A DNA stretch of 64,000 nucleotides from an uncultured Candidatus Saccharibacteria bacterium (GCA_964636355.1 CAZWRG010000006.1:660-64659), one strand, 5' to 3'. Positions 492 to 49,494 are shown, numbered from the stretch's first letter. A program made the numbers and translations. Notes: generated from the letters alone by a model not told the origin.

Positions 492-1067
492 ATGAAAACT
501 GTATACTTCGCCACCTCAAACCCAGATAAAATACAAATTGCATATGCTGTGTGCGCCGATGTCAATATAGACGTAAAGCCGGTCTCGCTTGAAATTGACG
601 AAATTCAGGGTGAGGATCCTGAGGTGATTGTTCGTGATAAGGCAAGCCGTGCCTTCGAGCAGCTAAATATGCCCGTGGTGGTTAGTGATGATACCTGGGA
701 CATACCTGCACTCAAAGGCTTCCCTGGCGCCTACATGAAATCAATAAATTACTGGTTTAGGCCAGAAGATTTCTTGAGGCTTATGAATGGCGTCGAAGAC
801 AGGCGCATAACACTTCATCAGTACTTAGCCTATACGGACGGCAATGTGACAGAAGTTTTCAAAAATGATATTCCGGGTCAAATAATTCATGAAGCACGCG
901 GTAAGAACGAAAAATCGCCAAATATGATGGTTATAGCCCTAGACTCAGATAACGGCAAAACTATCGCTGAGGTTTTGGAACAAGGTGAAGAGGCTGTAAT
1001 TGCTCGCTACAAGAACGGACCCGACGCCTGGCACGAGTTTGCCGATTGGTATAAAAATATTCAGTAG
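492..1067 (+). CDS. Non-canonical purine NTP pyrophosphatase (Ham1/RdgB/ITPase family)
   Basis: 191 aa. FATSNPDK near the N-terminus, EIQGEDPE, and DDTWDIPALKGFPGAY resemble Ham1 family motifs. Confidence 0.7.
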   Translation: MKTVYFATSNPDKIQIAYAVCADVNIDVKPVSLEIDEIQGEDPEVIVRDKASRAFEQLNMPVVVSDDTWDIPALKGFPGAYMKSINYWFRPEDFLRLMNGVEDRRITLHQYLAYTDGNVTEVFKNDIPGQIIHEARGKNEKSPNMMVIALDSDNGKTIAEVLEQGEEAVIARYKNGPDAWHEFADWYKNIQ

Positions 1068-1275
1068 CGTAAATGCTTACTGGATTCTTTTCAGAATAAA
1101 TGCGTGCCCCTGCCCACCTCTAACGGACATACTTCACAACTCATTATGAAGAGGCTGCGATTCAAGGCCGTCCGCTATAGTGTTGGCTGCTTAAAAGCTC
1201 GCAAAATTCAGTGGTTAGCCTTTTTAATCAATTTGCATCAGGCGATTACTCTGGTTGATGCAATCTATTAATTCC

Positions 1276-1644
1276 TTAGTTTTTTTCGAATACTTTGTGA
1301 AAATGGCCTGCAGCATCTTTTGCTCCTTCTTCTAGGGCAGAAAGTCCTGACTCGACTGTTGCTTGGGCGGCCAAGAGACGGCTTTGTGATGGATCAGATG
1401 GATTTACTGTAATATTATGTAACAGAGCCAGATTCCCAACTACTACCGCTTCAGCTGACTCCCGGGTACTCCAAGTTTCGCTAACCTCCCCGCCAACATA
1501 AATTGGAACCCTGTCTAACAGATCCGCTCTGTCTAATAGGCGCAAGCCAACTCTTGCACGAGCAGCTTCATCATTTGTTATGCTGTATTTTTCGGTAATA
1601 TTGATCCGATCAACATTGTTTATTATTAAACCTTTAAATTCCAT
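1276..1644 (-). CDS. Hypothetical protein (122 aa)
   Basis: ORF 1276..1668. The ATG at 1644 is preceded by AGGAG (attaggagaatgtATG). No family recognised. Confidence 0.5.
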   Translation of the reverse strand: MEFKGLIINNVDRINITEKYSITNDEAARARVGLRLLDRADLLDRVPIYVGGEVSETWSTRESAEAVVVGNLALLHNITVNPSDPSQSRLLAAQATVESGLSALEEGAKDAAGHFHKVFEKN

Positions 1645-1740
1645 ACATTCTCCTAATATGATTTCCAATTATTATCACGAAAATGACTCTTAAGCAAGCA
1701 TGAGCTAAATAGTTTAAATAAATTATTGCTTGAACACACA

Positions 1741-1772
1741 AAAAGGTCAGAACTGTGAAAATGGTTCTGACC
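1741..1772 (-). terminator. Rho-independent terminator downstream of the DUF1697 gene
   Basis: GGTCAGAAC (1745-1753) pairs with GTTCTGACC (1764-1772). It is followed by TTTTT on the minus strand. Confidence 0.6.
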
Positions 1773-1789
1773 TTACCTACTTGGGCTTA

Positions 1790-1819
1790 GCTCACCACGA
1801 TCAGAGGAAGTTATAACTG
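1790..1819. repeat. Module-boundary repeat, copy A core
   Basis: GCTCACCACGATCAGAGGAAGTTATAACTG. Near-identical core in copies B and C. Contains the palindrome AGTTATAACT. Confidence 0.7.
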
Positions 1820-1881
1820 TTATCAAGATGGACTTAGCCACAAATTAGTGACCTTGGCCTGTTCGTATTGAGGCGAAACGA

Positions 1882-2415
1882 TTATGAATCTAAGCGCTCC
1901 TGGATCTTTCTGACAGTGTTACAGTTACGAACGGTCATATTGCGGTATAGGTCGGTGCCTACTATCTTCATCATCCCACTCTTTGTTACATTTTTTCTAT
2001 CAACTTTCCAAACTAGAGCACCGTGCACATACTTTACTTCATCAATTCCGGGTTTTATTGTGAGTTGTTCAATGACTGATTCGTCATGATATTTATCCCA
2101 AAGAAACATCACATCACATTTCATCTCGCTGCCGTTGGTCCATTTGATCGGTATTGAACGGACTATTGCATCAATATTTTCTTTATTCCTGAGCAGGACT
2201 TTTATATCCAGGCCAAATTCATTATTTATAAGCTGTTCAAGTTTCGTAGTAAGGTTTGCTTCAGAGTCATTTGAAGTAAAAAATATATTTCCACTATTGA
2301 TATAGGTCGAAACTTCATTGAAGCCAGCTTTGCTCATAGCGACTATGAGCTGTTTCATGTCAATTTTATTATTACCGCCAACATTTACTCCTCTAAGTAA
2401 CGCAACGTATTTCAT
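1882..2415 (-). CDS. DUF1697 family protein
   Basis: 177 aa. The N-terminal MKYVALLRGVNVGGNNKIDMKQL is the hallmark DUF1697 start. Confidence 0.75.
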   Translation of the reverse strand: MKYVALLRGVNVGGNNKIDMKQLIVAMSKAGFNEVSTYINSGNIFFTSNDSEANLTTKLEQLINNEFGLDIKVLLRNKENIDAIVRSIPIKWTNGSEMKCDVMFLWDKYHDESVIEQLTIKPGIDEVKYVHGALVWKVDRKNVTKSGMMKIVGTDLYRNMTVRNCNTVRKIQERLDS

Positions 2416-2431
2416 GTCTATATCATATCCT

Positions 2432-2460
2432 AAAACAAAAACAGAGGCAGAATATCTCTG
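2432..2460 (-). terminator. Rho-independent terminator-like hairpin
   Basis: CAGAG (2442-2446) pairs with CTCTG (2456-2460). TTTTTGTTTT follows on the minus strand. It sits next to repeat copy B. Confidence 0.45.
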
Positions 2461-2481
2461 TTAATATTGGTTCTAACCTTG

Positions 2482-2510
2482 GCTCGCAACGCTAGAGGGA
2501 GTTATAGCTG
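2482..2510. repeat. Module-boundary repeat, copy B core
   Basis: GCTCGCAACGCTAGAGGGAGTTATAGCTG. Preceded by GGTTCTAACC-TTGG, which is homologous to the copy A/D terminator arm plus CTTGG. Confidence 0.65.
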
Positions 2511-2572
2511 CGATAAAGAAAGACAGGCACCAAGGTGAGTAAGTTGCACAGTATTGACTAAAGTTAAAGAAT

Positions 2573-2923
2573 ATGCTATATATGTTAAATATGAGCATAC
2601 AAAAAGCTATTAGAGATATTGATGAAGGTGTTCGTGCTCGATTTTTAGACGGTAATCCCGTGGAGCTGCATCTTCGAGGACATCATCCTGATTTTGAAGT
2701 CGAAGAAACCCGCTACGGGCTTAGTTTTTCGATACTTGAAAGAAGTTCGATTAATCTTGTAGGTAGTTACTCTGTCAGAAATATCGTTACTATCGACGAT
2801 CCTGTGGTTATTTATGATGGCGCCCATTACTACAGTAATGACATTTTCGGCTCTTTCGTCAGTACTAAGACACTAAATCGTATTTCTTCAGAGCTTGGTC
2901 TTCCTTATACTTTTTCTCGATAA
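2573..2923 (+). CDS. Hypothetical protein (116 aa), the only plus-strand gene in the module array
   Basis: Longest ORF in this interval. Copy B could supply a -35 TTGGCT / -10 TATAGC promoter 60 nt upstream. No family recognised. Confidence 0.4.
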   Translation: MLYMLNMSIQKAIRDIDEGVRARFLDGNPVELHLRGHHPDFEVEETRYGLSFSILERSSINLVGSYSVRNIVTIDDPVVIYDGAHYYSNDIFGSFVSTKTLNRISSELGLPYTFSR

Positions 2924-3043
2924 TTATGGATCAATGGCATTATAAGCGTTGTCAATTGGCTTGCTCGGTCAAGACTTTCTGAAATTTTAAGCAACCTAAT
3001 GCAAGCCACCGATAATCTCATTAGCTGTCTTTATAGTCTTTAT

Positions 3044-3073
3044 CACTCACAACGATAGAGGAAGTTATAACCG
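3044..3073. repeat. Module-boundary repeat, copy C core
   Basis: CACTCACAACGATAGAGGAAGTTATAACCG. Starts 15 nt beyond the stop of the DUF1761 gene. Confidence 0.7.
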
Positions 3074-3087
3074 CAACAAAACAGGAT

Positions 3088-3513
3088 TTAGCTAAGCAAG
3101 CCTATCGTTAGACCTATTAAAGCAAACTCTACAACCACCCAAGTAGTATCAATCCACATTAACTTAAACGGACGTAATGCAAACGCGTACAAAACTATTA
3201 GCTGTGAAGCGGCTAGTCCAGCACCTATAACTGCACCGTCAAATAACCCATCAAACCATCCTTGAGTATCTGTGAGAATAACATTGAGCATAAACGCTCC
3301 AAATACGCTTGCCACAAGAACTATAGGCAAAATACGACTCATGTATGCCTTTTCAATATCTTTAGCCTTCACCCCGACGGCTTCCATCCAAGCCTTTCCT
3401 GCAAGACTGTTGCTGTACCAAACGAAACTCCACACCATACTAACGACAGCCGAGACCCCCACAGCTAGCCAGTTCACATTGCTCAACATTGCTGATAAAT
3501 CCATTTTTGCCAC
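3088..3513 (-). CDS. DUF1761 family membrane protein
   Basis: 141 aa with about 4 TM segments. NWLAVGVSAVVSMVWSFVWYSNSLAGKAWMEAVG matches the DUF1761 N-terminal pattern. Confidence 0.65.
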   Translation of the reverse strand: MAKMDLSAMLSNVNWLAVGVSAVVSMVWSFVWYSNSLAGKAWMEAVGVKAKDIEKAYMSRILPIVLVASVFGAFMLNVILTDTQGWFDGLFDGAVIGAGLAASQLIVLYAFALRPFKLMWIDTTWVVVEFALIGLTIGLLS

Positions 3514-3569
3514 TCCTACTTATTGAGCTAATTATCTCATAAAAAAGTTCCTACTCAACTCTGGGTATA

Positions 3570-3600
3570 TAAAAAATCAGAACCGAATTAACAGTTCTGA
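3570..3600 (-). terminator. Rho-independent terminator downstream of the 3709..4161 gene
   Basis: TCAGAAC (3577-3583) pairs with GTTCTGA (3594-3600). TTTTTT follows on the minus strand. The stem sequence is homologous to the 1741-1772 terminator. Confidence 0.6.
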
Positions 3601-3613
3601 CTTCGTCTAGTAC

Positions 3614-3628
3614 GGCTTGGCTCACATT
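3614..3628. repeat. Module-boundary repeat, copy D (left part only, degenerate)
   Basis: GGCTTGGCTCACATT matches the CTTGGCT..GCTCAC part of copies A and B. The GAGGAAGTTATAAC part is lost. Confidence 0.45.
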
Positions 3629-3708
3629 GGCAGACGCATTGCGAACAGCAAGCGTAGATTACGATGATTACAAGCTGAAATTTATCAAAGAAGTGTTGAT
3701 ATAAGACA

Positions 3709-4161
3709 TTAGACTGTTAGTAGTCTAGATGGTTCGATGTCTAGGTCTCTAAGTTCTTCTGGTACTTCTGCTGAAGCATGAAGCATTAGAGCATTTTTAT
3801 CTATAGTGCCAACAAAATATCCCATTAGAATTCTAGGTCCAAATTGGGGCATCCTCGATGCACCTGTATTATCTAGGAACATGTGTCCGTCATCGCTAAA
3901 TTGACCCATTGCGTCATCAATCTCTCCACTATTATCTGGTGCATACATAGTGAAGTCTACATGCCATCGGTCTTCTGAAATTTGTTCTGCTGACCTAATT
4001 CCAGCTGGAGACTCAACTGCATAATCTGGTGCCCCTGGAGGAAGCATGATTCTTATAGTGTACAAACCTAAACGCTGTAGTCGTTGTGGTTCAACCCTAA
4101 GTATCTTATCTGCCTCGTATACCTGCTCAGGAAGTGCTCTAACATATCGTTCTTTGCTCAT
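3709..4161 (-). CDS. Hypothetical protein (150 aa)
   Basis: ORF with a leaderless-type promoter: GACAAT at 4174-4169, then 7 nt, then ATG at 4161. No family recognised. Confidence 0.5.
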   Translation of the reverse strand: MSKERYVRALPEQVYEADKILRVEPQRLQRLGLYTIRIMLPPGAPDYAVESPAGIRSAEQISEDRWHVDFTMYAPDNSGEIDDAMGQFSDDGHMFLDNTGASRMPQFGPRILMGYFVGTIDKNALMLHASAEVPEELRDLDIEPSRLLTV

Positions 4162-4269
4162 TGGTAGTATTGTCTAGAAAATTCATAACCTTTGCAAGCA
4201 TAAGGATTAACAGAGACACGAATTCGAAAGCTAGATTTGGGTTATTAAATATAACAGATGTAAAATTCA

Positions 4270-4340
4270 TGGCTCCGGCGACTGGATTCGAACCAAGCGT
4301 TTCTACCACCTGATTTTTAGGCTCGCTTTACTTTAGCTTA
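4270..4340 (-). pseudogene. tRNA 3' remnant (T-arm plus acceptor 3' strand plus CCA), no 5' half
   Basis: Minus-sense ...GCGAGCCTAAAAATCAGGTGGTAGAAACGCTTGGTTCGAATCCAGTCGCCGGAGCCA. It has a TTCGAAT T-loop and a CCA end. No matching 5' acceptor (TCCGGCG) and no canonical anticodon loop. Confidence 0.5.
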
Positions 4341-4362
4341 CATCCGTTGATTGTCAAACTGA

Positions 4363-5403
4363 TTATTGAATTACTCGAACTTTTTTAAAGTTTTTACCGC
4401 TCAATCCGTCAATCTGCACATCTTCAAAGCTAAACTTAGTTTTTTCCAGTTGGCTTGGCGAAAGTATGACTTGTCTATAGCTATCAGCTTTAGGTTGTAG
4501 TACACCAACACCTACCCAGAACTTCATAATTGAACTTTTAGTTGTACCGACTGAAATCGTAGTGCCAGACGGTAGTGGTTGCGTGAACGCCATAACCTTT
4601 TCTGGCCTTCCTTTGTGATAACCAGGCTCCGCTTTAGTAGCCATATAGGCATTATGCAAGTGAAAGACTTTCTCTTGCCATTTATGGTCTTTTAACTGTT
4701 CGTCAGTCGCTTTAGTATTAAGCTCAACCATAGCTCTTTGAGCGTCATTAAGTTCAGGCAAGCCACCAGGCGTTTCTGCTGTTAGTTTTTCTAAGTTTGC
4801 TTGTAATGACTTATCAAAGGCTTCTTCTGACGAGAACTGACCGCCGACGGTTGTTATTGTCATTTTTAGGTTGCTAGGCTGGTACGACTTTAGAAAATCT
4901 ATGAGTGATTGGTAGCTGTCTATGTAAGCCCGAATGTCCGACATCGGTATGTTGTCTAGGCGGTTAATAATGTAGTCGTCAACAAAGAAATCAAACCATA
5001 CACCTGGCTCGTAAATCTCGCAAACAGGCTTTACCCAGTTTGAATAGTACATAAGTGAAAAAAGCTCTGCCCAATCAGTTTCAGGAGCTTCTTCTAGTCG
5101 CCATAGTTTATATGCGCCGTGTAGAAACGTTACATTAATCGGTTCGTTATTTTCGACATTAAGCTGGATGGCCTTCCTGACACTTTTTTGCAAGTCTTCA
5201 TTCGCTGAATACTTACGGAACTTTTTGGACATCAAAGCCTTAAAAATAGCTTCCACCAACTCATCGGTATTATCGGGCTTCTTTAATCCGGTCGGCTGTT
5301 TCAGTTCTTTAAGTTTTGTCTGTATATATTCTTGTGCTGTCATAATAATTTGGAGATGCGAGGCAGACATTAACCTGCCGTATGTAGCTTTGCAAGCTAC
5401 CAC
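4363..5403 (-). CDS. Hypothetical protein (up to 346 aa, start uncertain)
   Basis: Long ORF. In-frame starts at 5403 (GTG), 5370 and 5343 (MTAQEYIQ...). A TACAATCTGTTACAAT promoter-like element lies upstream. No family recognised with confidence. Confidence 0.6.
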   Translation of the reverse strand: MVACKATYGRLMSASHLQIIMTAQEYIQTKLKELKQPTGLKKPDNTDELVEAIFKALMSKKFRKYSANEDLQKSVRKAIQLNVENNEPINVTFLHGAYKLWRLEEAPETDWAELFSLMYYSNWVKPVCEIYEPGVWFDFFVDDYIINRLDNIPMSDIRAYIDSYQSLIDFLKSYQPSNLKMTITTVGGQFSSEEAFDKSLQANLEKLTAETPGGLPELNDAQRAMVELNTKATDEQLKDHKWQEKVFHLHNAYMATKAEPGYHKGRPEKVMAFTQPLPSGTTISVGTTKSSIMKFWVGVGVLQPKADSYRQVILSPSQLEKTKFSFEDVQIDGLSGKNFKKVRVIQ

Positions 5404-5583
5404 CTATTCTCGGTCATCGCATCGATAATATTGTAACAGATTGTAGGCAGTAGGTCGGTCTAAGAACCCAGTCAGTTTTTCGCCTGCTCAGTCGCTATAA
5501 GGCTGACAGGTCAGTTTCGGAACCAGATTACAGAGGCAAGTTGACTAATCACGATCGTTTTACCGGTTCCAACCGATTCAGAA

Positions 5584-5610
5584 GGTATAGGAACTGGACT
5601 CGAACCCTCC
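5584..5610 (-). pseudogene. Degenerate tRNA T-arm remnant
   Basis: Minus-sense GGAGGGTTCGAGTCCAGTTCCTATACC. It shares GGTTCGARTCCAGT with the 4270 remnant. T-stem pairing is broken. Confidence 0.35.
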
Positions 5611-5641
5611 AACAGGGGTAAATATGCAAGAAGTAAACTCC

Positions 5642-5675
5642 AAAATAAAGAAAGACCGGTCTAGGACACCGGTCT
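5642..5675 (-). terminator. Rho-independent terminator after tRNA-Asn-like copy (i)
   Basis: AGACCGGT (5653-5660) pairs with ACCGGTCT (5668-5675). TTCTTTATTTT follows on the minus strand. Confidence 0.55.
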
Positions 5676-5695
5676 ACCTCTGTTAGTGCTTGATC

Positions 5696-5779
5696 TGGCT
5701 CGGGAGGCCGGAATACTAGGGTATAATCCGCCCGTCTGCGAGCTATAGCTCGCGGGGGATTAGCGAACTCGGCAACCTT
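5696..5779 (-). pseudogene. tRNA-Asn 3' half copy (i), with a roughly 50-nt insertion in the T-loop
   Basis: Minus-sense AAGGTTGCCGAGTTCG[insert containing the GCGAGCTATAGCTCGC hairpin]TCCGGCCTCCCGAGCCA. The last 17 nt are identical to the tRNA-Asn 3' end. AGGTTGCCG matches its variable loop and T-stem. Confidence 0.6.
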
Positions 5780-5833
5780 ACATCGACTAAAATCGCTGTG
5801 GTTGCCTAGGTCCAAGCTCGACACCGGAAGCAA

Positions 5834-5860
5834 GAAAAAACGAGTCCAAAAGGACCCGTC
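5834..5860 (-). terminator. Rho-independent terminator after tRNA-Asn-like copy (ii)
   Basis: ACGAGTCC (5840-5847) pairs with GGACCCGT (5852-5859), with one G-U pair. TTTTTT follows on the minus strand. Confidence 0.55.
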
Positions 5861-5866
5861 TTTTCC

Positions 5867-5884
5867 TGGCTCGGGAGGCCGGAC
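5867..5884 (-). repeat. 18-nt exact copy (ii) of the tRNA-Asn 3' end
   Basis: TGGCTCGGGAGGCCGGAC equals 6057-6074. The preceding roughly 115 nt (to 6001) are hairpin-rich and begin with TCGGGAT, which resembles the tRNA 5' acceptor TCGGGAG. Confidence 0.7.
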
Positions 5885-6013
5885 AGCGGGTTTCACCCTT
5901 TTCCGCTTGCTTGAAAAGAAAATACCTTTGGTGCTTTCTTTTCTTCACTTCGCTTCACCGAACCGCTTTTGCCGAGGCAAAAGTTCCGGTTCGCATCCCG
6001 ATTCTTACGAATC

Positions 6014-6050
6014 AAAAGAAAAACGTCCAAACCTATAAGGCCTGGACGTT
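6014..6050 (-). terminator. Rho-independent terminator after tRNA-Asn
   Basis: AACGTCCA (6022-6029) pairs with TGGACGTT (6043-6050). TTTTTCTTTT follows on the minus strand. Confidence 0.6.
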
Positions 6051-6056
6051 ATTCTT

Positions 6057-6131
6057 TGGCTCGGGAGGCCGGACTCGAACCGGCAACCTCGAAGTTAACA
6101 GCTTCTTGCTCCACCATTGAGCTACTCCCGA
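6057..6131 (-). tRNA. tRNA-Asn (anticodon GTT), CCA encoded
   Basis: Minus-sense TCGGGAGTAGCTCAATGGTGGAGCAAGAAGCTGTTAACTTCGAGGTTGCCGGTTCGAGTCCGGCCTCCCGAGCCA. Cloverleaf folds by hand. Anticodon loop is CTGTTAA. U1-A72 as in E. coli tRNA-Asn. Confidence 0.9.
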
Positions 6132-6308
6132 ATATCTATTGTAAAAATATAAATGTACTTTACGGTAGTAGCCATGGTGTCGCAAGATTGCTCCACTCTT
6201 ACCTATTAAAAGCTACTCCCGAATATATAATCTAAAATTTGAATGTGCTTGAGAGTAGTCATGGTTGAGCAAGATTGCTCCACTCTTACCTATTAAAAGC
6301 TACTCCGA
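6132..6308 (-). repeat. Two tandem ~88-bp units, each an AT-rich promoter-like spacer plus a tRNA-Asn 5' part copy
   Basis: GCAAGATTGCTCCACTCTTACCTATTAAAAGCTACTCC(C)GA occurs at 6183-6222 and 6269-6308. It keeps the acceptor 5' strand and D-stem (TTGCTCCAC) of tRNA-Asn, with an enlarged D-loop. Confidence 0.7.
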
Positions 6309-6317
6309 ATATAATTG

Positions 6318-6352
6318 AGTTAGAAAGTTAGAAAGTTAGAAAGTTAGAAAGT
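6318..6352. repeat. Microsatellite (AGTTAGAA) x4
   Basis: Direct reading: agttagaaagttagaaagttagaaagttagaaagt. Confidence 0.9.
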
Positions 6353-6488
6353 GTTTTCTGTGTGCTTTGGCGCTTTGGCTTGCGACAACTGCTGAATTAT
6401 ACCTAACAGAGACAGAACTGGCAATACCATGTGAAGGTTTTGTGTTGAGCGGTCTCTATGCTGCTTTCTCTACGAAAGAGATTCGTTC

Positions 6489-6683
6489 TTAGTGATCTTC
6501 AAGCGTGTCAGTATGTTCATTGGATTTTTCTAAAGCAGGAGAAACAACCTCGATGATTTGATCTATTTTTTCAGTTGTTTTCTCATGCAGACCCTCTAGT
6601 CTACGAACACTGTCCTGTAATTGCTTTTGCCCTTTGTGTAGGGCTGACAATGTCTTTAGTGTGGCATCTTCGAAATCATTCAT
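6489..6683 (-). CDS. Hypothetical small coiled-coil protein (64 aa) coupled to smpB
   Basis: Its ATG overlaps the smpB stop (ATGA at 6680-6683). Acidic, heptad-like sequence. No family recognised. Confidence 0.45.
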   Translation of the reverse strand: MNDFEDATLKTLSALHKGQKQLQDSVRRLEGLHEKTTEKIDQIIEVVSPALEKSNEHTDTLEDH

Positions 6684-7150
6684 GAGTATGTTTTAATGCG
6701 GTCGGTTTCGCGTTGTTGGTCTTTTTTCTTGAGGGTTTGGCGCTTGTCGTATTGTTTTTTCCCGCGTCCAGCCGAGATGCGAAGTTTTATGTAGCGGCCG
6801 CCGGTTAGAATTTCTAGCGGTACAATTGTCTTTCCCTGTTGTTTGGCAGCGATAAGCTCATCGATTTCTTTTCTTTTGGCCAGCAGTTTACGTGACCTGG
6901 TTTGTTGCTCTTCAGGAATTTTAGCCGAATTATCTCCGGTAATAGTGGCGTTTAGCAGCCATAACTCGCCGTCCTTTACAGTGACATATGCGCCGCGAAT
7001 GTGACCATGACCGCGCCGCAGAGATTTGGTTTCAGCTCCAGTCAGCTCAATGCCCACGATCAAACCATCACCTAGCTCATAATCATGTCTGGCGCGGCGG
7101 TTAGATATTTTTTTGGTTTGATTTGGCTTCTTTGCCTTTTTCTTGGCCAT
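6680..7150 (-). CDS. smpB: SsrA-binding protein SmpB
   Basis: 156 aa. NRRARHDYEL, GIELTGAETKSLR and a basic C-terminal tail are typical of SmpB. Confidence 0.9.
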   Translation of the reverse strand: MAKKKAKKPNQTKKISNRRARHDYELGDGLIVGIELTGAETKSLRRGHGHIRGAYVTVKDGELWLLNATITGDNSAKIPEEQQTRSRKLLAKRKEIDELIAAKQQGKTIVPLEILTGGRYIKLRISAGRGKKQYDKRQTLKKKDQQRETDRIKTYS

Positions 7151-9311: not shown

Positions 9312-10151
9312 ATGAAACACAAAATTAGCTTAAGCATTATTATACCTGTTTTTAACGAAGAAAACCACATCACCCGTTGCCTCACGGCTATCAATAAACA
9401 AACCGTTAAGCCCGATGAAGTAATTGTGGTTGATAATAACTCAACCGACAAAACGGTGGAATTAGCCCGCAAATTTCCTTTTGTAAAAGTTATAACCGAG
9501 CCAAAACAAGGCGTCTTAAATGCTCGAAACAGCGGCTTTAAGGCTGCAAAATCCGAAATCATAGGCCGGATTGATGCCGATACTGAGCTGATCCCGGAGT
9601 GGGTGGCTGAGGTGCTCAGGATTTTTGAAGACCAGCGAACCATGGCCGCCACCGGCCCGGTTTATTGGTACGATATGCCGCTTAAGGAAAAAAATTATTT
9701 CGCGGAACATGCTTTTAAGGGGCTGCTTTATAAATATGACAAAGAATATCCTTTTTTGTTTGGCTCAAACATGGCGATTAGAAAATCAGTCTGGGAGGAT
9801 TTAAAAGACGAGCTTTGCGACCGGAAAGACATGCATGAAGACATGGATTTGGCGGTTCATATGTATCAAAAAGGGCTGCATATTGCTTACGACCCAGCGA
9901 TGCGAGCCGGCGCGTCTTCACGCCGGGCTGATAGCGGTCCGGAAGACTTCTTTAAATATAACGAGATGATGAAAAACACTTTCTATAATCACGATATGAA
10001 TCCGGTTGGCGCTAAGGTTGCGATTGCGGCTTATACGCTCGGTTACGTGATGTTGTTTCCGATCAGACGAGCTTATGATGATAAATCTCAAAAATGGACT
10101 ATTAAAAATTTAATTCGCGGCAATAAGCCTCGAAAAAACCCCATGCACTGA
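9312..10151 (+). CDS. Glycosyltransferase family 2
   Basis: LSIIIPVFNEE..VVDNNSTDKT..RIDADT motifs. ATG at 9312 follows AGGA. The track starts 3 nt earlier at a TTG. Confidence 0.8.
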   Translation: MKHKISLSIIIPVFNEENHITRCLTAINKQTVKPDEVIVVDNNSTDKTVELARKFPFVKVITEPKQGVLNARNSGFKAAKSEIIGRIDADTELIPEWVAEVLRIFEDQRTMAATGPVYWYDMPLKEKNYFAEHAFKGLLYKYDKEYPFLFGSNMAIRKSVWEDLKDELCDRKDMHEDMDLAVHMYQKGLHIAYDPAMRAGASSRRADSGPEDFFKYNEMMKNTFYNHDMNPVGAKVAIAAYTLGYVMLFPIRRAYDDKSQKWTIKNLIRGNKPRKNPMH

Positions 10152-10161
10152 TTTAGCGGGT

Positions 10162-10275
10162 GGACGTTAGATGATAGATATTAGACCATGGATTTTGCGG
10201 CAATACGTGCAGTGGGCCTAAGGCTCAGTGGACAAAGTTAACCATCCAGTATCTAATTTCCAACATCTATCGTCC
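10162..10275. repeat. Long imperfect inverted repeat between convergent gene ends
   Basis: GGACGTTAGATG (10162-10173) pairs with CATCTATCGTCC (10264-10275) at 11 of 12 positions. ATTAGA (10180-10185) pairs with TCTAAT (10252-10257). Confidence 0.5.
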
Positions 10276-10287
10276 ATTGTCTATCTT

Positions 10288-10860
10288 CTATTCAGGGTTG
10301 GAGGTGTAGCCGCCGAAATCATTTTTACTTGGGCTGCACTCGCTCCATAAACCGCGGTTTTGTTCCCTGGCCTGCTTTTGTAAATTCCTAAACTCCTCGG
10401 ATTTAGTAAACGGAAAGCTGGTGTAGGCAAAGCCGTAGCCGTTTTTAATTATCTCGGCCTGGACTAAACGGCCGTCTGGTAAATAGACATGTCTAAGCAA
10501 GCGATTATAGCGATCACGATTGCTATTTAGCGGATCTGCCTCGAGTCGCACACTTTGATTGCCGATTAATTGCTTAGTAAATTCACTAGCTGCCTGTCCA
10601 AAACATTGCACCGGTTTGCGGGGATCTTGAGTCTCCGGTGTATCAACGCCAATCATTCTGACCCGCTCATTTTTACCGTTCATATCAACTGTTATGGTGT
10701 CGCCGTCTTCAAAACTGGCCACCTTGAAATATCCCGGAGTTTGCACCGGCCCGAGCTGCTCGGGTGGTCGTAAGTTATTCAGCAAATAGCCACCTAAAAT
10801 TAGAGCCAAGCCAACTATTAAATTGAATAATTTTTTCTGATTTCGCTTTGTAAGCTTCAC
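10288..10860 (-). CDS. Thermonuclease (staphylococcal nuclease-like) with N-terminal TM anchor
   Basis: RVRMIGVDTPET..CFGQAASEF..RYNRLLRHVY match the SNase fold motifs. GTG start. Confidence 0.8.
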   Translation of the reverse strand: MKLTKRNQKKLFNLIVGLALILGGYLLNNLRPPEQLGPVQTPGYFKVASFEDGDTITVDMNGKNERVRMIGVDTPETQDPRKPVQCFGQAASEFTKQLIGNQSVRLEADPLNSNRDRYNRLLRHVYLPDGRLVQAEIIKNGYGFAYTSFPFTKSEEFRNLQKQAREQNRGLWSECSPSKNDFGGYTSNPE

Positions 10861-13691: not shown

Positions 13692-14505
13692 ATTATTTCA
13701 GTTGTTCGCAGCCACCGAAGAAGGCGGCCCAGCAATTCACATCACGCCTGGTGAATTGTTCAAAATTGGTGAATTTGGAGTTACCAACTCGATGTTCTAC
13801 GGTGTTATTTCATCGATTTTGATTCTTGCTCTGATGATTTGGGTGGCCCGTAAAATTAGTATTAATCCAAAGCGCGGTTTCATCCAATTCGTAGAAATTG
13901 GCACTGATTTTATCATCGGCACTATTGAAAACTCGATGGGTTCACGCAAAAAAGCCATCCAGTACGCGCCATTTTTTGCGACGGCGTTTTTCTTTGTGAT
14001 GTTCACCAACTGGCTGGGCTTGATGCCAGGGGTTGGCGAAGCGCTGACTTATAATGAGCAGCCGGTTTTCAGACCGTTCACTGCTGATCTAAACGGTACG
14101 CTGGCGGCGTCTATCATTATGATGATTTTAGTCCAGATTTTTACTATTAAAGAGGTCGGCGGGATTGGCTATCTGAGGCATTTCTTTGCGGGCAGCCTTA
14201 AAAATCCAGCGACTTACCTGCTGGGAATTTTTGAAATGTTTTCGGAACTTACCAGAATCGGAAGTTTGGCGCTTAGGTTGTTCCTAAACGTCGCCATCGG
14301 TGAAACTATTCTAGTAATTTTTGCTTATTTGGGAAGCTTCGTAGCCCCAATTACGACGCTGCCTATTCTGATCCTGGAGCTGTTTGTTGGAGCTCTCCAG
14401 GCTTATATTTTCACTATGCTTATTATCATGTACCTATCGGCGGCTATCAAGCACGACCACGAACACGAGCAATCGCTCGAGCACGTGGTTGCGCATGAGA
14501 CATAA
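13684..14505 (+). CDS. atpB: F0F1 ATP synthase subunit a
   Basis: 273 aa, polytopic. LALRLFLNVAIGE contains the conserved Arg helix. Confidence 0.9.
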   Translation: MHRLFQLFAATEEGGPAIHITPGELFKIGEFGVTNSMFYGVISSILILALMIWVARKISINPKRGFIQFVEIGTDFIIGTIENSMGSRKKAIQYAPFFATAFFFVMFTNWLGLMPGVGEALTYNEQPVFRPFTADLNGTLAASIIMMILVQIFTIKEVGGIGYLRHFFAGSLKNPATYLLGIFEMFSELTRIGSLALRLFLNVAIGETILVIFAYLGSFVAPITTLPILILELFVGALQAYIFTMLIIMYLSAAIKHDHEHEQSLEHVVAHET

Positions 14506-15731: not shown

Positions 15732-17303
15732 ATGGAAAACATATCTATTAAAGAATTATCAGATGACATTCGCTCAGCGATTAACCAGCTGAAATCCAGC
15801 TCTCAGATTGAAAACGTTGGTATCGTCACCCGGGTTGGTGACGGCGTGGCTTGGATTTATGGCTTGAGCCAGTGTGGTTTCAGCGAAATGATTGAGATTG
15901 AATCAACCGATGGCGTGGCAATCACCGCCTTTGCTTTGAACCTTGGTGAGGATGGAATCGGTGCTGTGCTGCTAGGTGATGACACGCTAGTGAAAGCTGG
16001 CGCAACTGCTAAATTAACCGGCAAGGTTTTGGAAGTGCCAGTTGGGCCAGAGCTTGTTGGGCGAGTTGTCAATCCGCTGGGTCAGCCACTCGATGGTAAA
16101 GGCGCTATCAAAACCAGTCTAACGGCTAGGGTTGAGCAGCCGGCGCCAGGTGTTTTGGACCGAAAAAGTGTCCACGAACCGCTGATGACTGGTATTGCGG
16201 CGATTGATTCCATGGTGCCCATTGGTCGCGGTCAGCGGGAGCTTTTGATTGGCGATCGTCAAACTGGTAAAACTGCTGTGGCGGTTGACACGATGATTAA
16301 CCAGCATCGTCAGCAAACCGGTGTTATCAATATTTACGTCGCCGTTGGGCAGAAGCTCAGCAAAATTGCTCGTTTGGTTGAAAGGCTGAAGCGCGAAGGC
16401 GTTATGGATCAAACAATTGTGATTGCCACTTCAGCAGCTGATCCAGCCAGCATGCAATATCTGGCACCATATGCTGGCGCGGCAATGGGTGAATATTTCC
16501 GCGACAACAAACAGCACGCGTTGATTATTTATGACGATCTTTCCAAGCACGCGGCGGCATATCGTCAAATGTCGCTACTACTTCGCCGCCCACCAGGCCG
16601 CGAAGCTTACCCGGGCGATGTTTTCTACTTGCATTCGAGGTTACTAGAACGCGCTGCTAAACTGTCTGATGAACTAGGCGGCGGAAGCTTAACTGCCCTG
16701 CCGATTATTGAGACCCAGGCCGGGGACATCAGTGCCTATATCCCAACTAACGTAATTTCTATTACCGATGGTCAGATTTTCTTTGAAACTAACCTGTTTT
16801 ACCAGGGTATTCGTCCGGCGATTTCGGTTGGTCTGTCGGTTTCTCGTGTTGGTGGTTCAGCCCAAACTAAGGCAATTAAGAGCGTGTCGAAGGGTCTGCG
16901 TGTTGACCTGGCGCAGTTCCGTGAACTTGCTGCTTTTAGCCAATTCTCTACTGATCTGGATGCCGATACCCGTCAACGAATCGAGCGCGGTCAAAGACTC
17001 ACCGAGCTTCTAAAACAGCCGCAATACAGCCCACTGGCTATCTGGGAAATGTATTCAGTTCTGTATGCAGCGACTGAAGGTGCGTTTGATAAAGTTCCGC
17101 TTGAGAAGATTAAAACCGCTGAGGCTAACCTGCTTCGTGAACTAAAAAACGAGAGCAAAGAAGTTCTAAAGGCCCTAAAAGACGGTGCCGAACCAGATGA
17201 CAAGATCAAGAAAACCATCCTGGACACAGCCAATAAAGTAGCTAAGAGCTACATTCCACACGAAGAAACAAATAAGTCTGAAAGTAAGAAAGTTAAAAAG
17301 TAG
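15732..17303 (+). CDS. atpA: F0F1 ATP synthase subunit alpha
   Basis: GDRQTGKT Walker [32 protein letters not shown]. Confidence 0.95.
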
Positions 17304-19975: not shown

Positions 19976-20334
19976 TGGCTGTAGAGATTGAGCCAAACAT
20001 TGAACATGCTGCGTTGTTTGATCGAACAGCTGAGCAACGCCAAAGGCACACCGAGTTGGTTCTCGAAATGCGCGCAAATTATCCTGATATTGGGATCACT
20101 GTAGTTTCACACCTGGCTGATCTTCGGATGGAAAGGGATTTTTATGAATGGTTAGATCGGGAGGCTGATACCAGAGCAGGTTTATATGGAGCATCAGACA
20201 GCCAGCCTTTTACTGAAGAATTTGATCAGCAGCGAGAAATTGCGATGGCTGTTATTCGTGATGAGATTCAGGAGTTGCATGAGTCATTGGGGTTTCCAAT
20301 GCTGGAATTGAGAGGACCAAAAGCTGATGTTTAG
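19975..20334 (+). CDS. Orphan acidic protein (119 aa) inserted between atpD and atpC
   Basis: TAATG overlap with the atpD stop and an 8-nt overlap with the atpC start. No family recognised. Confidence 0.55.
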
Positions 20335-31540: not shown

Positions 31541-31615
31541 TGGCTAGGGCGGAGGGATTCGAACCCCCGAATGCCAGGACCAAAACCTGGTGCCTTACCA
31601 CTTGGCCACGCCCTA
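31541..31615 (-). tRNA. tRNA-Gln (anticodon TTG), CCA encoded
   Basis: Minus-sense TAGGGCGTGGCCAAGTGGTAAGGCACCAGGTTTTGGTCCTGGCATTCGGGGGTTCGAATCCCTCCGCCCTAGCCA. Cloverleaf folds by hand. Anticodon loop is TTTTGGT. Confidence 0.9.
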
Positions 31616-49290: not shown

Positions 49291-49494
49291 TTATTGCCCT
49301 TCTTAAGAAATTTGAATTTCAATATCGACCTTATTGAAATTTTATCAATAAAAATTGACCTCCGTTACCAAAGGTCAATATGTGCTCACAAAACGTAAAA
49401 TGTATTGATCTAGCACCTCGGCGACACAATTAAGGATTACTCCAGTCGCTGTCTTTGGTAACAGATGGGAGTTTAGCAAACATTACGGCTAATG
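49291..49494 (-). promoter_or_regulatory. rplJ leader with terminator/antiterminator architecture (L10-leader-like)
   Basis: Terminator TTGACCT/AGGTCAA (49355-49378) followed by TTTTT on the minus strand. Its loop GTTACCAAA (49364-49372) is complementary to TTTGGTAAC (49454-49462) upstream. Confidence 0.5.

What the first reader, a model, noticed from the sequence alone, without database searches (positions are those of the whole stretch)
1068..4340. Tandem single-gene modules separated by a decaying direct repeat that looks like a tRNA 3' remnant
Six small unrelated genes (122-aa orphan, DUF1697, 116-aa orphan, DUF1761, 150-aa orphan, 346-aa orphan) sit at 560-700 bp spacing. Each intergenic gap carries a copy of one element in the same orientation. 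On the plus strand the element reads: a hairpin arm GGTTCTRACC, then CTTGG(G)CT..GCTCAC, then ACGAT(C)AGAGGAAGTTATAAC. The cores are A at 1790-1819, B at 2482-2510 and C at 3044-3073. D at 3614-3628 is half decayed. The terminator stems at 1745-1772 and 3577-3600 are homologous to each other. The fifth position (4270-4340) is a recognisable tRNA 3' fragment (T-loop plus CCA). Its GGATTCGAACC ... GGCTCGC aligns with GGTTCTAACC ... GGCTCGC of copy B. This fits serial, att-like accretion of one-gene cassettes at a tRNA-derived site, or module duplication. No integrase is present in the window. The region also looks more AT-rich than the rest by eye, which I did not compute.
Basis: partly seen in the sequence, partly recalled or inferred. 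Interest (0 to 1): 0.65.

Follow-up and report, generated by a model that had tools for sequence, protein, structure and literature searches.

The report
Recombinase scars bounding genes beside tRNA-Asn
Next to the tRNA-Asn gene of this Saccharibacteria genome lies a row of small foreign genes, each bounded by the scar that a serine-recombinase mobile element leaves when it inserts at the end of the tRNA; the same hotspot holds different genes in well over a hundred related sequences.

Summary
The repeat is real, but it is not a decaying tRNA remnant. Window 1068-6131 is an insertion hotspot downstream of tRNA-Asn (6057-6131, minus strand) in a Saccharibacteria genome.

Each module ends in a "P arm" followed by a 7-8 nt core, GAGCCAAG, and then an intrinsic terminator. 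The core is the discriminator base plus CCA of the tRNA and the first trailer bases.

Read on the opposite strand, the P arms are the last 17-29 codons of a large serine recombinase (LSR) whose reading frame crosses its own attachment site.
- Copies A, B and C are tail type 1 (WLTTIEEVITxIKxD).
- D is a different, intact tail (type 3), not a decayed copy.
- E is a tRNA-Asn-like arm.
- Two more 17-nt tRNA-end repeats lie at 5696 and 5867.

Relatives show both states of the cycle: an 8.7-kb circle with the intact recombinase gene, and an 11-kb element inserted at tRNA-Asn with the tail split off.

The type 1 arm occurs in at least 120 metagenome contigs, always 3' of tRNA-Asn, behind 87 unrelated cargo families. 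The window holds no recombinase, so its array is fossil or movable only with outside help.

This is a new variant of a known kind. The closest published case is the Dehalococcoides ssrA islands.

The parts
6057..6131 (-). tRNA-Asn (GTT), the attachment target. Its last bases, GAGCCA (6057-6062 on the + strand, read as TGGCTC), form the recombination core.
   Evidence: ARAGORN and Rfam. 20 of the 23 tRNAs found in arm-bearing loci are tRNA-Asn, on the same strand and upstream of the arms.
6022..6050 (-). Intrinsic terminator directly after tRNA-Asn (the current trailer).
   Evidence: Terminator scan. Fold of -24.4 kcal/mol, z = -6.5.
5867..5915 (-). Scar r1: an exact 17-nt copy of the tRNA-Asn 3' end (5867-5883) plus an arm. 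Read on the + strand it gives WLGRPDSGFHPFPLA then a stop. A terminator follows at about 5830-5862.
5696..5720 (-). Scar r2: an exact 17-nt copy of the tRNA-Asn 3' end (5696-5712). A terminator follows at 5653-5675.
4363..5403 (-). Cargo gene, 346-aa orphan.
   Evidence: No Pfam, NCBIfam or PADLOC family.
4269..4320 (-). Scar E: a tRNA-Asn-like arm (type 2) plus the core. Read on the + strand it gives WLRRLDSNQAFLPPDF then a stop. It resembles the arm read by the recombinase of L156.
3709..4161 (-). Cargo gene, 150-aa orphan.
3617..3704 (-). Scar D: core TTGGCTC (3617-3623) plus an intact type-3 arm. Read on the + strand from 3618 to 3704 it gives WLTLADALRTASVDYDDYKLKFIKEVLI then a stop.
   Evidence: 61% identical to residues 502-529 of recombinase P0018. 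The same tail type sits at the attR of the integrated element in L163.
3550..3616 (-). Class-a trailer after D: hairpin 3577-3601, a U-run, then TATATACCCAGAG.
   Evidence: Class a also follows 8 tRNA-Asn genes in other loci.
3088..3513 (-). Cargo gene, DUF1761.
3039..3092 (-). Scar C: type-1 arm with a decayed core (GAGTGATAAA in place of GAGCCAAG).
2573..2923 (+). Cargo gene, 116-aa orphan. It is the only one on the opposite strand.
2479..2542 (-). Scar B: core TTGGCTC (2479-2485) plus a type-1 arm. Read on the + strand from 2480 it gives WLATLEGVIAAIKKDRHQGE then a stop.
2437..2478 (-). Class-c trailer after B, with a terminator hairpin at 2441-2461. It is the same class as the trailer at the attR of the intact element in L163.
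1882..2415 (-). Cargo gene, DUF1697.
1784..1840 (-). Scar A: type-1 arm with a mutated core (GAGCTAAG) and a 1-nt insertion.
1735..1783 (-). Class-a trailer after A: hairpin 1745-1772 plus a U-run.
1276..1644 (-). Cargo gene, 122-aa orphan, the most distal module.
1040..1090 (.). Distal boundary of the array: the Ham1 stop codon (1065-1067) inside a hairpin. In relatives this hairpin lies about 35 nt from the last core (L149).

Best explanation
Window 1068-6131 is a hotspot built by repeated site-specific integration at the 3' end of tRNA-Asn. The integrating elements encode a large serine recombinase (LSR).

**The free element.** In its circular form, the LSR reading frame runs across the attachment site. 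It reads ...NWL over the core (TGGCTC on its own strand) and then 17-29 further codons, which form the P arm.

**Integration.** Recombination with the tRNA end (core GAGCCAAG) has two results.
- It places the body of the LSR gene against the tRNA. The tRNA read backwards now supplies the tail of the protein (WLRRLDSNQRP...).
- It strands the original tail at the far end of the element, as an attR scar made of arm, core and the former tRNA trailer with its terminator.

**The array in the window.** Later insertions at the tRNA push older material outwards. The recombinase and core genes of old elements are then lost, or were never part of the module. What remains is a cargo gene followed by a tail and a core. 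The window holds seven such scars: A, B and C (tail type 1), D (type 3), E (tRNA-like), r2 and r1. It holds six cargo genes and no recombinase.

**What is shown:** the homology of the core and trailer to tRNA-Asn; the identity of the arms with LSR C-termini; both states of the cycle in relatives; the diversity of cargo.

**What is inferred:** that this LSR family catalyses the events; how the one-gene modules are produced; whether the window's array can still move. The cores of A and C are mutated. Those of B, D, r1 and r2 are intact.
For: **1. Core and trailer match tRNA-Asn.** In relative L008 the tRNA-Asn 3' end, trailer hairpin and TATACCC align with the 3' half of units A and D and of L8_2.

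**2. A hypervariable site between conserved flanks.** Ham1 and SmpB/GH flank the site in L003, L007, L008 and L024. None of the six window genes lies between them there. L008 has four type-1 arms with other genes.

**3. The type-1 arm is widespread.** 20 of 23 co-located tRNAs are tRNA-Asn, always upstream and on the same strand.

**4. The arm sits just after a gene, and the genes are diverse.** It follows a same-strand ORF in 118 of 139 cases, a median of 24 nt past the stop. The 104 cargo proteins fall into 87 clusters. Shared modules lose homology at the core.

**5. The recombinases read through the core.** L017:18661-20226 has the Resolvase, Recombinase and Zn_ribbon_recom domains. All four full LSRs carry TTGGCTC 30-90 nt before their stop.
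- L017 reads into a real tRNA-Asn.
- L156 reads into a tRNA-Asn 3' half.
- L062 reads into a type-1 arm.
- L142 reads into a fourth kind of arm.

Truncated LSR remnants abut arms in L113, L144 and L058.

**6. The arm behaves like coding sequence on the opposite strand.**
- The frame is open, with the stop most often 17 codons after WL.
- Variable columns fall at antisense codon position 3: entropy 1.32 against 0.69 and 0.67.
- The synonymous fraction is 0.36, against 0.10 and 0.12 in the other two antisense frames.

**7. The LSR family is large and its C-termini match the arms.** 521 homologues were found. Their C-termini fall into the same classes as the window's arms.

**8. Both states of the cycle are seen in relatives.**
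- The P0023 element is an 8.67-kb circle. Its contigs are circular permutations of each other and one has a 30-nt terminal repeat.
- The P0027 element is integrated. Its LSR overlaps tRNA-Asn, and a type-3 tail, the core and a class-c trailer lie 11 kb away.

**9. Composition.** The array has lower GC than any other 5-kb stretch of the window.
Against: - No recombinase lies in the window, and nothing shows that this particular array ever moved.
- Only about 4 of 162 arms abut recombinase remnants.
- Most trailers belong to the same classes as native tRNA-Asn trailers, and several copies can occur in one array. Simple 'integrate, then decay' does not predict this.
- The wobble pattern of the arm is shared with one sense-strand frame, which has a synonymous fraction of 0.34. 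The coding argument therefore rests on the directly observed LSR reading frames.
- The search pattern fixed 22 of about 50 arm positions, which inflates the apparent conservation.
- The absence of tyrosine recombinases was tested only with a crude motif scan.
Confidence: 0.8

Rival explanations
1. An integron-like capture platform. Each one-gene module (trailer, gene, tail) is itself a mobile cassette. As a minicircle it would carry an attR-type site (tail, core, trailer). A recombinase supplied by a resident element would insert it between tRNA-Asn and that element, or excise it from there. This rival shares the recombinase and the core with the best explanation. It differs only in what the unit of movement is.
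For: - Modules have a uniform architecture and far outnumber recombinase genes.
- Cargo is very diverse.
- Trailer classes recur, and tRNA-Asn shares them.
- L113 has exactly the predicted product: tRNA, core, class-a trailer, gene, tail, core, recombinase remnant.
- The same module is found behind different arm types in L052 and L087.
Against: - No free minicircle was seen.
- Recombination of an attR-type site with attL would need a directionality factor, and inserting cassettes by that reaction is, to my knowledge, not an established activity of serine integrases.
- Accretion with co-excision through alternative attR sites explains the same layouts using only the canonical attL x attR reaction.
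Confidence: 0.2
2. A classical integron cassette array, or a cluster of attC sites that has lost its integrase.
For: Single promoter-proximal ORFs each followed by a repeat, mostly in one orientation, with small orphan cargo.
Against: - The repeat has no conserved hairpin. The consensus fold is -0.72 kcal/mol, with 3 invariant pairs and no compensatory change in 110 copies.
- Its conservation is at the level of sequence and codons, not structure.
- The associated recombinase is a serine recombinase, not IntI.
Confidence: 0.01
3. A conserved RNA element, such as a 3' UTR motif, small RNA or attenuator, that ends in the terminator and acts on the neighbouring genes.
For: The arm lies between a stop codon and an intrinsic terminator, so it is probably transcribed.
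Against: - No Rfam family matches, even at E = 10.
- There is no covariation.
- The arm is tied to one chromosomal locus and to the tRNA-Asn end, not to a gene family.
- Its opposite strand is an observed recombinase reading frame.
Confidence: 0.03
4. An ordinary promoter or operator, or local tandem duplication of one module.
For: The arm contains the palindrome AGTTATAACT and a TATAAC hexamer.
Against: - The motif is absent from the other 58 kb of the window, apart from one weak hit.
- It is absent from 37 related loci except at this locus.
- It lies after genes, not before them.
- The genes between copies are unrelated, and the arms are of different types.
Confidence: 0.02

Closest known systems
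Dehalococcoides ssrA genomic islands (McMurdie et al. 2011, PMC3146451)
   Same: - The genome is streamlined.
- A large serine recombinase of about 540 residues (DsiB, CcrB family) lies on the reverse strand next to attL.
- Integration is at the 3' end of a tRNA-like single-copy gene.
- Tandem islands are bounded by short direct repeats of that end.
- An extra conserved motif beside the repeat does not match the target gene.
- Many islands lack the integration module and were proposed to be cis-mobilizable by accretion.
   Different: - The target here is tRNA-Asn, not tmRNA.
- The shared core is only 7-8 nt, against 20 bp.
- No second small serine recombinase was seen in the elements examined.
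- The modules are mostly single genes of 0.5-1.3 kb.
- The motif beside the core is shown here to be the end of the recombinase reading frame, in at least three or four tail types.
Staphylococcal SCC / SCCmec composite islands (own knowledge; also summarised in PMC3146451)
   Same: - Serine recombinases (CcrAB, CcrC) insert elements at the 3' end of a conserved gene.
- Tandem arrays are delimited by direct repeats.
- Elements without recombinase genes sit in the arrays.
- The window's relatives' LSRs hit the CcrA, CcrB, CcrC and XisF models weakly.
   Different: - All those hits fall far below the curated cut-offs, so these LSRs are not Ccr orthologues.
- The target is a tRNA, not rlmH.
- The host is Saccharibacteria.
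Tycheposons of Prochlorococcus (10.1101/2020.12.28.424599)
   Same: - The genome is streamlined.
- Islands lie next to tRNA genes.
- Successive integrations push older elements outwards.
- Partial tRNAs and fragmented integrases are left behind.
   Different: - 910 of 937 of those elements use tyrosine recombinases.
- Their scars are partial tRNAs. Here most scars are recombinase tails that share only 7-8 nt with the tRNA.
Integrons
   Same: A row of single ORFs, each followed by a recombination site, with diverse small cargo.
   Different: There is no attC fold, no IntI and no attI. The site is a coding remnant of a serine recombinase.
Integration-dependent immunity of mycobacteriophages, where attP lies inside a coding sequence (own knowledge: Broussard et al. 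2013)
   Same: Integration changes the C-terminus of a protein because attP lies inside its gene.
   Different: There the gene is the repressor and the integrase is a tyrosine recombinase. Here the recombinase's own reading frame is split. Any regulatory consequence is untested.

Membership tests
tRNA-targeted integrative-element array (serial site-specific integration) | The array lies directly 3' of a tRNA gene, in the same orientation. | tested here: met
   tRNA-Asn is at 6057-6131 (-) and all scars are on the minus strand downstream of it. The same layout holds in all 20 other arm-bearing loci that contain a tRNA-Asn.
tRNA-targeted integrative-element array (serial site-specific integration) | Modules are bounded by direct repeats of the tRNA 3' end. 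| tested here: met
   There are 17-nt exact repeats at 5696 and 5867, about 30 nt of tRNA-like sequence at 4269, and the 7-8 nt core GAGCCAAG at B and D. The core is mutated at A and C.
tRNA-targeted integrative-element array (serial site-specific integration) | A site-specific recombinase is associated with the site. | tested here: inconclusive
   None is in the window. It is present in relatives, reading through the core.
tRNA-targeted integrative-element array (serial site-specific integration) | Both the free (attP) and the integrated (attL plus attR) forms exist. | tested here: met
   This was met for related elements, not for the window's modules. L160/L161 form an 8.67-kb circle. L163 carries an integrated 11-kb element with the tail split off.
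tRNA-targeted integrative-element array (serial site-specific integration) | Module-level presence or absence varies between related genomes. | tested here: met
Large serine recombinase (for the associated enzyme) | Resolvase catalytic domain, Recombinase domain and zinc ribbon. | tested here: met
   PF00239, PF07508 and PF13408 are all above cut-off in L017. They are also precomputed for P0001-P0120.
CcrB/DsiB-type cassette chromosome recombinase system | Orthology to CcrB. | tested here: not met
   The NCBIfam CcrA, CcrB and CcrC hits score 40-64 bits against cut-offs of 700-900.
CcrB/DsiB-type cassette chromosome recombinase system | A partner small serine recombinase is present. | tested here: not met
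   No second Resolvase-domain gene lies in L160, L161 or L163.
Integron / attC cluster | attC sites: imperfect palindromes that fold as hairpins. | tested here: not met
   RNAalifold on 110 copies gives -0.72 kcal/mol, 3 invariant pairs and no covariation.
Integron / attC cluster | An IntI tyrosine integrase with an adjacent attI. | tested here: inconclusive
   The motif scan found none in the window or in 158 loci, but that scan is crude.
Structured cis-regulatory or small RNA | A match to a known family, or a conserved structure with covariation. | tested here: not met
   Rfam gave no match at the gathering threshold or at E = 10. There is no covariation.

The most novel reading that the evidence does not exclude
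Saccharibacteria may carry an integron-like gene-capture platform built on a serine recombinase. One-gene modules would move individually as minicircles bearing an attR-type site. They would be inserted between tRNA-Asn and a resident element. The recombinase's own C-terminus would switch between a tRNA-encoded tail and a cassette-encoded tail with each event, which could set the direction of the reaction.
Probability: 0.15. Interest if true: 0.8.

Novelty: new variant of a known kind. Interest (0 to 1): 0.55.

Why it matters
- **A route for gene gain in very small genomes.** Saccharibacteria have tiny genomes and few recognised mobile elements. This locus appears to be a main entry point for accessory genes in one clade. 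A defined 7-8 nt core, a recombinase family of more than 500 members and a free 8.7-kb circular element give a concrete route for gene flow in these epibionts.
- **A practical annotation rule.** The scars are recombinase reading-frame tails, so translating the strand opposite the tRNA from TGGCTC types each past insertion event.
- **Candidate tools.** The recombinase and site pairs could serve for site-specific integration into tRNA-Asn in a group that has only recently become genetically tractable.

Tried and rejected
- **Known RNA families.** Rfam gave nothing at the repeats, at the gathering threshold or at E = 10.
- **Source genome.** An exact-protein lookup of Ham1, meant to extend the window leftwards, returned only a 1-kb contig. 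The flank left of the window could therefore not be searched for a recombinase.
- **Viral contigs.** The arm pattern had no match, so there is no evidence for a phage attP.
- **Tyrosine recombinases.** A motif scan found nothing credible in the window or the loci. This is weak negative evidence only.
- **The arm as a degenerate tRNA body.** Its GTTATAACTTC resembles the anticodon arm CTGTTAACTTC of tRNA-Asn. I dropped this reading in favour of the recombinase-tail reading, which explains the open frame, the stop position and the wobble pattern.
- **The class-a trailer as a recombinase 3' remnant.** Its antisense translation is partly open. However, it does not resemble any recombinase C-terminus, and it follows 8 native tRNA-Asn genes. 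I rejected this.
- **Defence or other functions for the four orphan cargo genes.** No Pfam, NCBIfam or PADLOC match was found.
- **A terminal scar between the 122-aa gene and Ham1 (1068-1275).** Only a weak resemblance was seen, and this is unresolved.

Full report
**Organism and setting**

The window comes from a member of the Saccharibacteria (TM7). The Ham1-family protein at 492-1067 is at most 81% identical to proteins in Saccharibacteria genome bins. The finding lies between Ham1 (plus strand, stop at 1067) and tRNA-Asn(GTT) at 6057-6131 on the minus strand. SmpB (6680-7150) and a glycoside hydrolase follow. All repeats are best read on the minus strand, which is the sense of the tRNA.

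**Checking the observation**

Three copies of one element are real: A (1784-1840), B (2479-2542) and C (3039-3092).
- The 15-mer AGAGGAAGTTATAAC is exact in A and C and has two mismatches in B.
- With up to three mismatches the window has 5 matches, against 1.6 expected.
- The only match outside the region is weak.

The hairpins at 1745-1772 and 3577-3601 are homologous. Both fold as terminators on the minus strand. Position 4269-4300 is a tRNA 3' fragment. The region has GC 0.4125 against 0.446 for the rest, lower than any other 5-kb stretch of the window.

- the tRNA-Asn gene itself;
- two exact 17-nt copies of its 3' end at 5696-5712 and 5867-5883, each followed by a terminator;
- that D is a different kind of arm, not a decayed copy (see below).

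**Link to tRNA-Asn**

A related genome (L008) has Ham1 at 10001-10573 and SmpB at 16290-16700. Between them the same element occurs four times, in the same orientation, but with entirely different genes: a glyoxalase, an Asp/Glu racemase, two orphans and a RibD_C protein.

The array there ends at tRNA-Asn (13710-13784). The sequence after that tRNA is GAGCCA|AGCC, then 10 nt, then the hairpin GTCAGAAC...GTTCTGAC, then TTTTTATATACCC. This aligns with the 3' half of window units A and D.

So each unit ends in a core, GAGCCAAG. The core is the discriminator base plus CCA of tRNA-Asn and the first trailer bases. A tRNA-type trailer follows it.

**Breadth**

It matched no viral contig.

A profile search found 162 copies in 122 loci. 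About 30 loci have two or more copies on the same strand, 0.4-1.6 kb apart. Of the 23 tRNAs in those loci, 20 are tRNA-Asn, always on the same strand and upstream of the copies.

Conservation is confined to about 50 nt and stops sharply at the core.

The element follows a same-strand ORF in 118 of 139 cases, a median of 24 nt after the stop. The 104 such proteins fall into 87 clusters.

Where the same module occurs in two contigs, homology ends at the core. In L052 and L087 the same module sits behind two different arms.

After the core there is always an intrinsic terminator. These trailers fall into recurrent classes that units and tRNA-Asn genes share.
- The largest class, a, has 30 units and 8 tRNAs.
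- Window A and D carry class a.
- Window B carries class c.

**What the ~50-nt element is**

It has no conserved secondary structure. RNAalifold on 110 copies gives -0.72 kcal/mol and no covarying pair. It matches no Rfam family.

Its opposite strand is an open reading frame, WL(T)TIEEVITxIKxD, ending most often 17 codons after WL. The variable columns fall at antisense codon position 3. The synonymous fraction is 0.36, against 0.10 and 0.12 in the other two antisense frames. One sense frame shares the wobble columns, so this statistic alone is not decisive.

The direct evidence settles it. In L062 a 530-aa protein with Resolvase, Recombinase and zinc-ribbon domains reads through the core and the element to its stop. 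Truncated remnants of the same gene abut the element in L113, L144 and L058.

All four full-length recombinases in the loci carry TTGGCTC 30-90 nt before their stop codon:
- L017 reads into a real tRNA-Asn;
- L156 reads into a tRNA-Asn 3' half;
- L142 reads into another kind of arm;
- L062 reads into the type-1 arm.

A database search returned 521 homologues. Their C-termini all pass through ...NWL and then fall into four classes:
- tRNA-antisense tails (WLRRLDSNQRP...), the majority;
- the type-1 tail;
- a type-3 tail (WLxxADTLRTAxxDYDExKVNxIKELLxxV);
- a WLRLQVT tail.

**Re-reading the window**

Translating the plus strand from each TGGCTC gives the following.

| Scar | Plus-strand start | Translation | Type |
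|---|---|---|---|
| B | 2480 | WLATLEGVIAAIKKD... | type 1 |
| D | 3618 | WLTLADALRTASVDYDDYKLKFIKEVLI, stop | type 3, 61% identical to P0018 |
| E | 4270 | WLRRLDSNQ... | tRNA-like |
| r2 | 5696 | WLGRPEY, stop | tRNA-identical start |
| r1 | 5867 | WLGRPDSGFHPFPLA, stop | tRNA-identical start |
| tRNA-Asn | 6057 | WLGRPDSNRQPRS, stop | the tRNA itself |

A and C are type 1 with mutated cores. The array therefore records at least seven events involving at least three arm types.

**Both states of the cycle in relatives**

The P0023 element is a free circle of 8.67 kb. Three contigs are circular permutations of one another, and one has a 30-nt terminal repeat. It encodes the recombinase with an intact type-3 tail, an HTH_17 (excisionase-like) protein, an FtsK/SpoIIIE translocase and a SpoVG-like protein.

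The P0027 element is integrated. Its recombinase overlaps tRNA-Asn and carries a tRNA-encoded tail. Eleven kb away lie a type-3 tail, the core and a class-c trailer.

**Mechanism**

The best-supported reading is serial serine-recombinase integration at the tRNA-Asn end. The crossover lies within GAGCCAAG. The recombinase reading frame spans attP, so attR scars are recombinase tails.

What is inferred, not shown, is how the one-gene modules arise.
- Simple decay of 8-11-kb elements predicts many recombinase remnants. Only about 4 of 162 arms have one.
- Several tRNA-type trailers can occur in one array.

Two routes fit the data.
- Accretion with co-excision through alternative attR sites, as proposed for the module-less ssrA islands of Dehalococcoides (PMC3146451).
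- Insertion of single modules as minicircles into the junction between the tRNA and a resident element. The layout of L113 fits this.

I could not separate the two. The window has no recombinase, and two of its cores are mutated. Its array is therefore at least partly fossil.

**Comparison with known systems**

The closest published system is the Dehalococcoides ssrA genomic islands. They share these features:
- a CcrB-family serine recombinase next to attL on the reverse strand;
- tandem islands downstream of a tRNA-like gene;
- short direct repeats plus an adjacent motif not derived from the target;
- many islands without an integration module.

Tycheposons show the same push-outward logic, mostly with tyrosine recombinases. 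SCC elements are the classical serine-recombinase analogue, but the recombinases here are not Ccr orthologues. Integron membership fails on the attC fold.

Literature searches found no description of this system in Saccharibacteria or Patescibacteria within the held library.

**Verdict**

This is a real and well-delimited feature. The element is a recombinase tail plus a 7-8 nt tRNA core, not a tRNA remnant. It is a new variant of a known kind.

Noticed in passing
window 6120-6146 / 6211-6237 and 6167-6219 / 6254-6306: Upstream of tRNA-Asn lie two further partial copies of the tRNA's 5' end (GGAGTAGCT...TGGAGCAA) together with upstream DNA. The copies are 89-92% identical to each other. They may be scars of events on the 5' side or duplicated promoter regions.
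   Followed up: no
window 6318-6349: Four head-to-tail copies of AGTTAGAA lie between the tRNA-Asn upstream repeats and the small ORF before smpB.
   Followed up: no
window 5400-6700: Neither ARAGORN nor Rfam finds a tmRNA gene next to smpB (6680-7150) or anywhere else in the 64 kb.
   Followed up: no
L017:18371-18514 and 20053-20196: The recombinase gene beside tRNA-Asn is flanked by 144-bp inverted repeats that both begin at GAGCCA. This may be an inversion between attachment sites, or a recombinase-only mobile unit.
   Followed up: partly
L160 / L161 / L162 (Logan ERR4405439-41): An 8.67-kb circular element encodes the recombinase, an FtsK/SpoIIIE translocase, an HTH_17 protein and a SpoVG-like protein. 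This gene set resembles the integrative conjugative elements of actinomycetes, which, to my knowledge, include the hosts of cultured Saccharibacteria.
   Followed up: partly
cargo start regions, e.g. L008:13614-13660, L045, L116: In class-a modules a TATNAT-like hexamer lies 6-7 nt before the ATG of the cargo gene, after a conserved TTGAAAC. This suggests leaderless transcripts.
   Followed up: no
window 49340-49476 and 31541-31615: A ribosomal protein L10 leader (Rfam, 59.7 bits) and a tRNA-Gln. Both are ordinary features.
   Followed up: no
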